Source of the DNA: Octopus vulgaris | Lineage: Eukaryota | NCBI GenBank assembly: GCA_951406725.2 | Contig: OX597836.1 | Span: 10,044,001 to 10,108,000 of the forward strand | DNA length: 64,000 nucleotides | Direction: 5' to 3' | In this document: positions 4,909-61,909 of the stretch, piece by piece | How the letters are laid out: each line of letters starts with the position of its first letter | Numbering within the stretch: the first letter of the stretch is position 1 | Made by a program: the position numbers and the translations under genes | Notes under the pieces: generated by a model | The model's input: the letters and a program-made list of their open reading frames with translations, nothing else | The model's database searches: none | What the model was told of the DNA's origin: nothing

Positions 4909-5155
4909 CTAAGACGGGGTCAGTGTAGGGTTCTCCCCTGATGGCCACTCCTTTCCCTCTGACATAGCGTCTATGGTTGTGGTACGAATTATACTTTCAG
5001 GGTAAAATTTTTCAGATGAGTAAAACTCTGTATTGTTCAGTCCCTTGTGACCTGGGCACCTAGATTTATCATCACTTGGGTTGAAAGTGCTGTCGTGGTT
5101 AAATTCGAGTAAGACATTCATTTTGCTATCAAAACATCTCTTCAATTTTCCCCTT
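4909..5155 (-). CDS. Exon Y: terminal exon, cytoplasmic tail
   Basis: ttttcag acceptor, phase 2; basic stop-transfer (R)RGKLKR...NPTLTPS*. Confidence 0.82.

Positions 5156-61909: not shown

What the first reader, a model, noticed from the sequence alone, without database searches (positions are those of the whole stretch)
4909..61909. Unusual single-pass membrane protein: low-complexity head, 19x TSP1, Ig, EGF, TM, tail
Seen: 25 phase-compatible exons giving ~1,980 aa. Established: TSP1 arrays occur in hemicentin, SCO-spondin, ADAMTS(L), BAI adhesion GPCRs, UNC5 and semaphorin-5, but I recognise none of these with this domain order. The repeats also have a short Cys-to-Cys loop (mostly C-x6-C after RxR). 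Inference: a lineage-specific cell-surface adhesion or recognition molecule built by phase 1-1 exon shuffling. Several exons (F, G, S, T, U, V, X) are missing or mis-framed in the ORF track.
Basis: partly seen in the sequence, partly recalled or inferred. Interest (0 to 1): 0.8.

Follow-up and report, generated by a model that had tools for sequence, protein, structure and literature searches.

The report
Octopus thrombospondin-repeat surface protein
This octopus gene encodes a very long cell-surface protein (19 thrombospondin repeats, an Ig domain, an EGF domain and one membrane anchor) that is mislabelled in databases, and four of its repeats have been copied over one another separately in each of two octopus species, as happens in some egg-sperm recognition proteins.

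Summary
Confirmed. Twenty-five minus-strand exons give one open 1,981-aa frame: 563-aa head, 19 TSP1 repeats (one phase 1-1 exon each), I-set-like Ig, EGF, one TM helix, 83-aa tail. The window matches Octopus vulgaris CAI9739278.1, whose model omits 12 TSP exons and the TM exon. The O. bimaculoides RefSeq orthologue XP_014779085.1 has the full order (18 TSP1, 83% identical) under the wrong name 'SCO-spondin'. No relative outside Octopus was found (searches of limited reach). Two corrections: the C-x6-C loop is the spacing of human thrombospondin-1 repeat 1, so not unusual; the head is only partly low-complexity. New here: repeats 12-15 group by species, not by position. Their exons differ at 4% of third positions while homologous deep-intron DNA differs at 18%, which points to exon-centred gene conversion. 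Best reading: a lineage-restricted adhesion/recognition receptor on a long TSR stalk. A gamete-recognition role (as for VERL or EBR1) is possible but has no expression support. No RNA junctions, expression or usable structure were obtained.

The parts
60221..61909 (-). Exon 1 in window (phase 1-1): 563-aa head with acidic run, two non-repetitive segments (aa 136-260, 311-445) and a Pro/Thr linker with a 21-nt repeat; true first exon lies upstream of the window
   Evidence: 100% to CAI9739278.1 and 81% to the O. bimaculoides protein
58250..58423 (-). Exon 2, TSP1 repeat 1
56582..56755 (-). Exon 3, TSP1 repeat 2
53909..54130 (-). Exon 4, short linker + TSP1 repeat 3
52361..52714 (-). Exon 5, Thr/Lys/Pro-rich linker + TSP1 repeat 4 (only repeat with a 4-residue C3-C4 loop)
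51183..51332 (-). Exon 6, TSP1 repeat 5
48369..48560 (-). Exon 7, TSP1 repeat 6; absent from all 4 O. bimaculoides isoforms, present in CAI9739278.1
43245..43418 (-). Exon 8, TSP1 repeat 7
37249..37422 (-). Exon 9, TSP1 repeat 8
35368..35541 (-). Exon 10, TSP1 repeat 9
33088..33261 (-). Exon 11, TSP1 repeat 10
29331..29504 (-). Exon 12, TSP1 repeat 11
27390..27563 (-). Exon 13, TSP1 repeat 12 (homogenised block)
25654..25827 (-). Exon 14, TSP1 repeat 13 (homogenised block)
23839..24012 (-). Exon 15, TSP1 repeat 14 (homogenised block)
22104..22277 (-). Exon 16, TSP1 repeat 15 (homogenised block)
20566..20739 (-). Exon 17, TSP1 repeat 16
19581..19757 (-). Exon 18, TSP1 repeat 17; weak donor GTGGGG; skipped or read through in two O. 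bimaculoides isoforms
13546..13719 (-). Exon 19, TSP1 repeat 18
12716..12868 (-). Exon 20, TSP1 repeat 19
10186..10330 (-). Exon 21, first half of Ig domain (phase 1-2)
8385..8500 (-). Exon 22, second half of Ig domain (phase 2-1)
7627..7758 (-). Exon 23, EGF domain (phase 1-1; Cys spacing 4-5-14-1-8)
6026..6131 (-). Exon 24, transmembrane helix (phase 1-2); 33 of 35 aa identical to O. bimaculoides; omitted by CAI9739278.1
4909..5155 (-). Exon 25, cytoplasmic tail and stop; 74 of 82 aa identical to O. bimaculoides; AATAAA at 4500, 4280, 4184, 4075 downstream

Best explanation
One Octopus gene encoding a type I membrane glycoprotein of about 2,000 aa that works as a long-reach adhesion/recognition receptor. 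Shown: domain order, single TM, orthologue with the same order in a second species, and within-species homogenisation of TSP exons 13-16 (repeats 12-15). Inferred from what TSR families do (own knowledge): after secretion, the 19 disulfide-bonded, C-mannosylated and O-fucosylated TSRs form a semi-rigid stalk of roughly 100 nm (about 5 nm per TSR, recalled); their Trp/Arg ladders bind sulfated glycans or partner proteins on another cell or matrix; the Octopus-specific head sits at the tip; Ig + EGF is a conserved membrane-proximal neck; the short tail has no enzyme or known signalling domain, so it anchors or traffics rather than signals directly. The array grew by tandem duplication of symmetric phase 1-1 exons with their introns; later, conversion tracts covering the exon plus about 100 nt of the donor flank made repeats 12-15 alike within each species. 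Symmetric exons also allow isoforms of different stalk length. Tissue and ligand are unknown.
For: Open 1,981-aa frame over 25 exons. RefSeq O. bimaculoides isoforms X1-X3 carry the same order with TM and tail; 1,578 of 1,890 aligned residues identical. Ig, EGF and TM exons are the most conserved block (91-97%; tail 90%). O-fucosylation consensus in 16 of 19 repeats, three Trp C-mannosylation sites in 18 of 19; 26 N-glycosylation sequons before the TM. Homogenisation: in a tree of 37 repeats, repeats 1-5, 7-9 and 16-19 pair by position across species, whereas O. vulgaris 12-15 form their own clade (99/96; 92/96 in the 16-row tree). Among repeats 12-15 there are 4 species-diagnostic and 0 position-diagnostic columns; AU tests reject 3 of 4 positional pairs (p 0.0004, 0.011, 0.041; the fourth 0.065). 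Among exons 13-16, mismatches are 15 of 342 at third positions and 32 of 537 in the first 90 intron nt, against 123 of 678 in homologous deeper intron, the same depth as against exon 12. Acceptor flanks pair 13 with 16 and 14 with 15, while exons pair 15 with 16.
Against: No RNA junction, expression or protein evidence was obtained for O. vulgaris; the one public O. vulgaris model omits the TM exon and ends out of frame, and 1 of 4 O. bimaculoides isoforms also lacks the TM. The presumed signal peptide is seen only in O. bimaculoides and its hydrophobic core is short; no signal-peptide predictor was run. The Ig is below the Pfam cut-off. The head has no fold support (pLDDT 39.6 and 42.1). Function rests on domain analogy alone. 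O. bimaculoides repeats 12-15 do not form a supported clade of their own, only proteins were available for that species, pairwise counts are not independent, and the repeat copies were not checked against reads.
Confidence: 0.7

Rival explanations
1. A special case of the best reading: it is a gamete-recognition protein (sperm surface or egg/oviduct surface), the octopus analogue of abalone VERL or sea-urchin EBR1, with species-homogenised repeats giving species-specific multivalent binding.
For: Within-species homogenisation of an internal block with position-specific ends parallels VERL repeats 3-22, and EBR1 is built from TSP1 and CUB repeats (PMC9265791, passages). The ESM Atlas lists SPACA1 and TMEM81 clusters at ranks 2, 3, 5 and 8 for the last TSPs + Ig + EGF + TM (0.81-0.83). 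Found only in Octopus.
Against: No expression data. Atlas scores under 0.9 are leads only (shuffled proteins reach 0.8 a third of the time) and rank 1 is an UNC5-type cluster. No CXXC motif in the protein; IZUMO1, SPACA6 and TMEM81 are described as vertebrate-restricted (PMC13192892, passages); no IZUMO1/SPACA6 chain among the 60 shown of 85 and of 65 PDB matches. Concerted evolution occurs in many tandem arrays unrelated to fertilisation (own knowledge).
Confidence: 0.2
2. A neuregulin/Vein-like growth-factor precursor: Ig-EGF-TM is the working unit, shed to activate an EGF receptor, and the TSP array tethers it to matrix.
For: Ig-EGF-TM-tail order is that of neuregulin; neuregulin clusters appear at Atlas ranks 9, 13 and 14 (0.78-0.80); this block is the most conserved part.
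Against: EGF spacing is 4-5-14-1-8 and lacks the G-x-R-C motif that EGFR ligands need (consensus recalled); best PDB matches are Notch and coagulation-factor EGFs, with no neuregulin among the 60 shown of 85; the EGF lies in one phase 1-1 exon.
Confidence: 0.06
3. A much-altered member of a known TSR membrane family (THSD7A/B, UNC5, semaphorin-5) whose orthology is hidden by divergence.
For: THSD7A is also a single-pass protein with about 21 TSRs and a short tail (PMC8523383, passages); UNC5 combines Ig, TSP1 and TM (PMC10084454, passages) and an UNC5-type cluster is Atlas rank 1 (0.87). The sequence searches need shared exact words and had length limits.
Against: All 19 repeats have the thrombospondin-1 repeat-1 type spacing, not THSD7A's mix of two TSR types; Ig follows rather than precedes the TSRs; no ZU5, Death or Sema domain; no member of these families among the hits.
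Confidence: 0.07
4. The exons are not one membrane-protein gene: either several genes, or a secreted product ending after the EGF as in CAI9739278.1.
For: CAI9739278.1 omits exon 24 and stops 4 residues into exon 25 in another frame; O. bimaculoides X4 ends without a TM; junctions were not tested on reads.
Against: Exons 24-25 keep an open frame with 94% and 90% identity between species; 3 of 4 RefSeq isoforms join all parts; no start or stop between exons 1 and 25. A secreted minor isoform remains possible.
Confidence: 0.05
5. On the sub-claim only: likeness of repeats 12-15 within species comes from independent recent duplications in each species, or from assembly/polishing that overwrote copies, not from gene conversion.
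Against: Homologous deep-intron DNA is 18% diverged and broken by different insertions, which recent whole-unit duplication would not give; both species have four copies at the same place; copies still differ at 5-13 of 174 nt; the O. bimaculoides proteins show their own within-species likeness (87-98%).
Confidence: 0.15

Closest known systems
O. bimaculoides XP_014779085.1 / XP_052832006-8 ('SCO-spondin' X1-X4) and O. vulgaris CAI9739278.1 ('adt-1-like')
   Same: The same gene: orthologue with identical domain order, 83% identity; CAI9739278.1 is 100% identical over the head.
   Different: Names are automatic and wrong; O. bimaculoides models have 18 TSP1; CAI9739278.1 has 7 TSP1 and no TM. 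No paper found citing these accessions.
THSD7A/B
   Same: Single-pass protein with a long TSR array (21) and short tail (PMC8523383, passages).
   Different: THSD7A's ectodomain is all TSRs of two types; this protein has one TSR type plus a 563-aa head, Ig and EGF; no THSD7 hit.
UNC5 and semaphorin-5
   Same: Membrane proteins with TSP1 repeats; UNC5 also has Ig domains (PMC10084454, passages).
   Different: UNC5 order is Ig-Ig-TSP-TSP-TM-ZU5/UPA/Death; here Ig follows 19 TSPs and the tail is 83 aa with no Pfam match; no Sema domain.
Abalone VERL and sea-urchin EBR1
   Same: Long repeat arrays; VERL repeats 3-22 homogenised by concerted evolution; EBR1 contains TSP1 repeats (PMC9265791, passages).
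   Different: No ZP-N or CUB domain here; this protein has a TM anchor behind Ig-EGF; no evidence of gamete expression. Analogy in mode of evolution, not homology.
Neuregulin / Vein
   Same: Ig-EGF(-TM-tail) order at the C-terminus.
   Different: EGF is of Notch/coagulation type without G-x-R-C.
TMEM81 / SPACA1 / IST superfamily
   Same: Weak feature-level likeness of the TSP-Ig-TM end (0.81-0.83).
   Different: Below the Atlas's reliable range; no CXXC pair; Ig aligns best to contactins.
Thrombospondin-1 repeat 1 and properdin TSR1
   Same: Same short C3-C4 loop; ungapped alignment.
   Different: Secreted oligomers with 3 or 6 TSRs; here the short type is used in all 19.

Membership tests
TSP1 (TSR) superfamily, thrombospondin-1 type | WxxWxxW, six Cys, RxR, Pfam TSP_1 above cut-off | tested here: met
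   19 of 19; spacing; repeat 2 has Leu at the first Trp position
Type I single-pass membrane protein | One C-terminal TM helix followed by basic residues | tested here: met
Type I single-pass membrane protein | N-terminal signal peptide | tested here: inconclusive
   Exon not in window; O. bimaculoides start has a short hydrophobic stretch; no predictor available
SCO-spondin | vWD, TIL, LDLa, vWC and cystine-knot domains; secreted (features recalled) | tested here: not met
   Pfam on XP_014779085.1 gives only TSP1 families and EGF; TM present
ADAMTS / ADT-1 | M12B metalloprotease, disintegrin-like and spacer domains (recalled) | tested here: not met
   None
THSD7A/B | Ectodomain made only of TSRs, of THBS1-like and F-spondin/C6-like types (PMC8523383) | tested here: not met
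   Uniform THBS1-repeat-1 spacing, TSP1_spondin below cut-off for each single repeat, extra head/Ig/EGF
UNC5 | Ig-Ig-TSP-TSP-TM with ZU5, UPA, Death tail (PMC10084454) | tested here: not met
   Order differs; tail has 0 Pfam families
Semaphorin-5 | Sema + PSI domains | tested here: not met
Hemicentin | vWA, long Ig array, G2F, EGF array; secreted (recalled) | tested here: not met
   One Ig, one EGF, TM present
BAI / ADGRB | GAIN domain and seven TM helices (recalled) | tested here: not met
   Single hydrophobic segment; no GAIN
Neuregulin / EGFR ligand | Ig followed by EGF and TM | tested here: met
Neuregulin / EGFR ligand | EGFR-ligand Cys spacing and G-x-R-C (recalled) | tested here: not met
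IST superfamily (IZUMO1-SPACA6-TMEM95) | Pair of CXXC motifs with four-helix bundle and beta-hinge (PMC12615630) | tested here: not met
   No CXXC in the 1,981-aa model
IST superfamily / TMEM81 | Ig with 2+5 or 2+4 strand topology (PMC12615630) | not tested
   No model of the Ig was made; sequence matches are to contactin-type Ig domains
EBR1 | TSP1 repeats alternating with CUB domains; egg envelope | tested here: not met
   No CUB; location untested
Gamete-recognition proteins (functional class) | Expression on sperm or egg and species-specific binding | not testable with these tools
   No usable expression data obtained

The most novel reading that the evidence does not exclude
A cephalopod gamete-recognition receptor: a roughly 100-nm TSR stalk with a new head domain, whose internal cassette exons are kept species-specific by exon-centred gene conversion and can be spliced to different lengths, ending in a TSP-Ig-EGF-TM neck reminiscent of TMEM81/SPACA1. 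It would be a TSR-based parallel to abalone VERL in an internally fertilising mollusc.
Probability: 0.18. Interest if true: 0.75.

Novelty: new variant of a known kind. Interest (0 to 1): 0.45.

Why it matters
It adds a domain order (head - TSP1 x19 - Ig - EGF - TM) that fits none of the characterised TSR families, shows that two database names for it are wrong, and repairs a public model that drops the membrane anchor. The clearest new point is evolutionary: separate exons embedded in diverged introns have been homogenised within each species, a clean case of conversion between cassette exons that can be tested with genomes already public. If the gene proves gonad-specific it becomes a first candidate for species-specific gamete recognition in octopuses; otherwise it is one more lineage-specific surface protein made of common modules.

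Tried and rejected
No whole genome is held for this window, so the upstream exon, paralogues and synteny were not examined. No reads were laid, so junctions and repeat copies are untested on reads. Head homologues: HMMER over 1.84 billion representatives gave 7 weak hits (E 4e-5 to 7e-4), all in the Pro/Thr-rich part, and did not return the Octopus protein itself, so this blank is weak; Atlas gave no usable hit; Pfam only DUF2057 at E 0.12, below cut-off. AlphaFold2 single-sequence models of the head and of residues 305-445 were too poor to use; no fold search was run. No complex prediction was obtained. IgSF10 and a frog properdin hits are summed generic-domain matches (31% and 24% coverage) and were rejected as orthologues. 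Shorter relatives (under 650 aa) were not searched. dN/dS above 1 between repeat 12 and repeats 13-15 rests on 1-2 synonymous changes and is not taken as positive selection. The anchored intron identities printed came from a faulty alignment setting and were replaced. 'SCO-spondin' in octopus skin mucus: the first 2 of 122 occurrences seen in the PMC10138644 supplement belong to another gene, and 0 of 4 short peptides of this protein occur in that file, which was cut when stored; the supplement of PMC11431876 could not be read and may bear on this. Literature searches that found nothing on this gene. Earlier scan findings: none. No further TSP exons or remnants in the introns.

Full report
Observation. 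A six-frame scan found 19 TSP1 motifs, all on the minus strand between 58.4 and 12.7 kb; 20 shuffles gave none. Each lies in its own exon; 13 of the 19 exons are exactly 174 nt (exon 18 is 177 nt after its acceptor was corrected to 19757). With a 1,689-nt head exon upstream and five exons downstream, the 25 exons give one open frame of 1,981 residues, with 25 of 25 AG and 24 of 24 GT sites (boundaries were chosen on these signals). Pfam confirms 19 of 19 TSP_1 and the EGF above cut-off. The Ig, split over two exons, scores just under the cut-off and aligns best to contactin-5 and axonin-1. There is one hydrophobic helix and an 83-residue tail with no Pfam match. No further TSP exon is hidden in the introns.

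Identity. The head is 100% identical to CAI9739278.1 of Octopus vulgaris and 81% to an O. bimaculoides RefSeq protein; these were the only 2 hits among 5,554 candidates. The O. bimaculoides gene has four isoforms named 'SCO-spondin'. X1-X3 run from a short hydrophobic start through head, TSP array, Ig, EGF, TM and tail and align with 24 of my 25 exons in order; X1 has 18 TSP1, lacking repeat 6. The O. vulgaris record keeps only 7 TSP exons, omits the TM exon and stops out of frame. That the TM and tail exons keep their frame at 94% and 90% identity across species argues that this record, not the membrane form, is the incomplete one, but no reads were laid, so this is not shown directly. The start codon and signal-peptide exon are not in the window.

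Two corrections. The C-x6-C loop (18 of 19 repeats) aligns without a gap to repeat 1 of thrombospondin-1 and to properdin TSR1; it is a known TSR type, here used throughout. The head is low-complexity only at about residues 76-135 and 446-520; segments 136-260 and 311-445 have a third hydrophobic residues and are 84% and 89% identical between species, so they may fold. They match nothing outside Octopus and single-sequence AlphaFold2 gave unusable models.

Range. Searches with the Ig-EGF-TM-tail (3 hits of 427 candidates) and with the last TSP-Ig-EGF (3 of 56) returned the two Octopus proteins and one generic multi-domain hit each. These searches need shared exact words, covered 650-3,367 residues, and squid or cuttlefish genomes could not be searched, so 'Octopus only' is a floor, not a limit.

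Family membership. SCO-spondin, ADAMTS/ADT-1, hemicentin, BAI, semaphorin-5, UNC5, THSD7A, EBR1 and the IST superfamily each fail a defining feature (membership table; Pfam; definitions from passages of PMC8523383, PMC10084454, PMC9265791 and PMC12615630, or recalled where so marked). The Ig-EGF-TM end has neuregulin's order, but the EGF has spacing 4-5-14-1-8, lacks G-x-R-C and matches Notch-type EGFs. In build it works most like THSD7A: a long TSR stalk on a single anchor.

In a tree of all 37 repeats from both species, repeats 1-5, 7-9 and 16-19 pair by position, 10-11 are mixed, and O. vulgaris 12-15 form their own clade (99/96). Within-species identity for 12-15 is 85-98% (O. vulgaris) and 87-98% (O. 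bimaculoides) against 80-87% across species. Four columns separate the species and none separates the positions; AU tests reject three of the four positional pairs and not the fourth. The O. bimaculoides four are not a supported clade by themselves. The DNA tells how: among exons 13-16, third positions differ at 15 of 342 sites and the first 90 intron nucleotides at 32 of 537, but homologous deeper intron differs at 123 of 678, as much as it does against exon 12, whose third positions differ at 14-17 of 57 (pairs are not independent). Acceptor flanks pair 13 with 16 and 14 with 15, while the closest exons are 15 and 16. Old duplication of exon-plus-intron units followed by conversion over the exon and donor flank explains this; recent duplication does not. 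An assembly artefact is unlikely, since a second species shows its own version, but it was not excluded on reads.

How it most likely works. Shown: anatomy, conservation gradient (neck, TM and tail 90-97%; TSRs 71-93%; head 81%) and glycosylation consensus sites. Inferred from established TSR biology (own knowledge): a stalk of about 100 nm whose Trp/Arg faces bind sulfated glycans or protein partners, carrying a lineage-specific head at the tip; no RGD and no furin-type site in the head; a short non-catalytic tail. All TSP exons are symmetric, so skipping keeps the frame, and one RefSeq isoform does skip repeat 17. I put 0.7 on an adhesion/recognition receptor of this kind.

The bolder reading. 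Homogenised internal repeats with position-specific ends are the pattern of abalone VERL, and EBR1 is a TSP1-repeat sperm receptor (PMC9265791, passages). The Atlas also listed SPACA1 and TMEM81 clusters for the C-terminal part, but at 0.81-0.83, behind an UNC5-type cluster and inside the range that shuffled proteins reach; TMEM81, IZUMO1 and SPACA6 are reported as vertebrate-restricted (PMC13192892, passages; the TMEM81 preprint 10.1101/2023.07.27.550750 was seen as one passage and added nothing). There is no expression evidence, and concerted evolution is common in tandem arrays. Probability about 0.18-0.2.

Literature. No paper in the library cites the accessions or describes this gene (listings, plus passages of PMC11431876 and PMC6522055). 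The 'SCO-spondin' of octopus skin mucus could not be tied to it (one supplement cut, another unreadable). Most subscription papers are outside this library.

Verdict. Real, one gene, already modelled in RefSeq under a wrong name, uncharacterised, built from common modules in an order not found in any family tested, with a well-supported sign of exon-level concerted evolution. New variant of a known kind; interest 0.45, rising to about 0.75 if it proves to be a gamete-recognition protein.

Noticed in passing
window 2433-2816 (+): Last coding exon of a convergent neighbour with a PhyH (phytanoyl-CoA dioxygenase) match above cut-off; a usable synteny marker.
   Followed up: partly
window 19581 (exon 18 donor): The only weak donor (GTGGGG). 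O. bimaculoides isoform X3 skips this exon and X4 reads past this donor into another frame and ends without a TM: a possible switch to a secreted form.
   Followed up: partly
window 48369-48560 (-): TSP repeat 6 is the most divergent repeat (long branch) and is missing from all four O. bimaculoides isoforms; lost, or simply not modelled there.
   Followed up: partly
window 60398-60514: A 21-nt unit repeated 5.6 times inside the head exon encodes a Pro/Thr/Glu linker that differs from O. bimaculoides: a species-specific length change.
   Followed up: no
window 10186-10330 (-): The Ig's first half has two extra cysteines near the B-strand Cys, conserved in both species; possibly a second disulfide.
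   Followed up: no
window 6180-7345: About 1.1 kb of GGT-rich repeat with a 147-nt higher-order unit (4.3 copies, 94% match) in the intron between the EGF and TM exons; may be why one annotation lost the TM exon.
   Followed up: no
window 47795-48316 (-), 39984-40481 (-), 59463-59777 (+), 26004-26732: Intronic open frames that look by eye like LINE reverse-transcriptase/endonuclease and Tc1/mariner fragments (recalled likeness); no Pfam match at E 0.1 for the five frames scanned.
   Followed up: partly
window 31015-31606, 32590-32944, 54281-54653: Tandem 229-nt and 184-nt units (2-2.6 copies, 91-96% match) of what looks like one interspersed repeat family common in these introns.
   Followed up: no
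public record CAI9739278.1: Model lacks 12 TSP exons and the TM exon and starts inside the presumed signal peptide; its 'adt-1-like' name, like 'SCO-spondin' in RefSeq, is not supported.
   Followed up: yes
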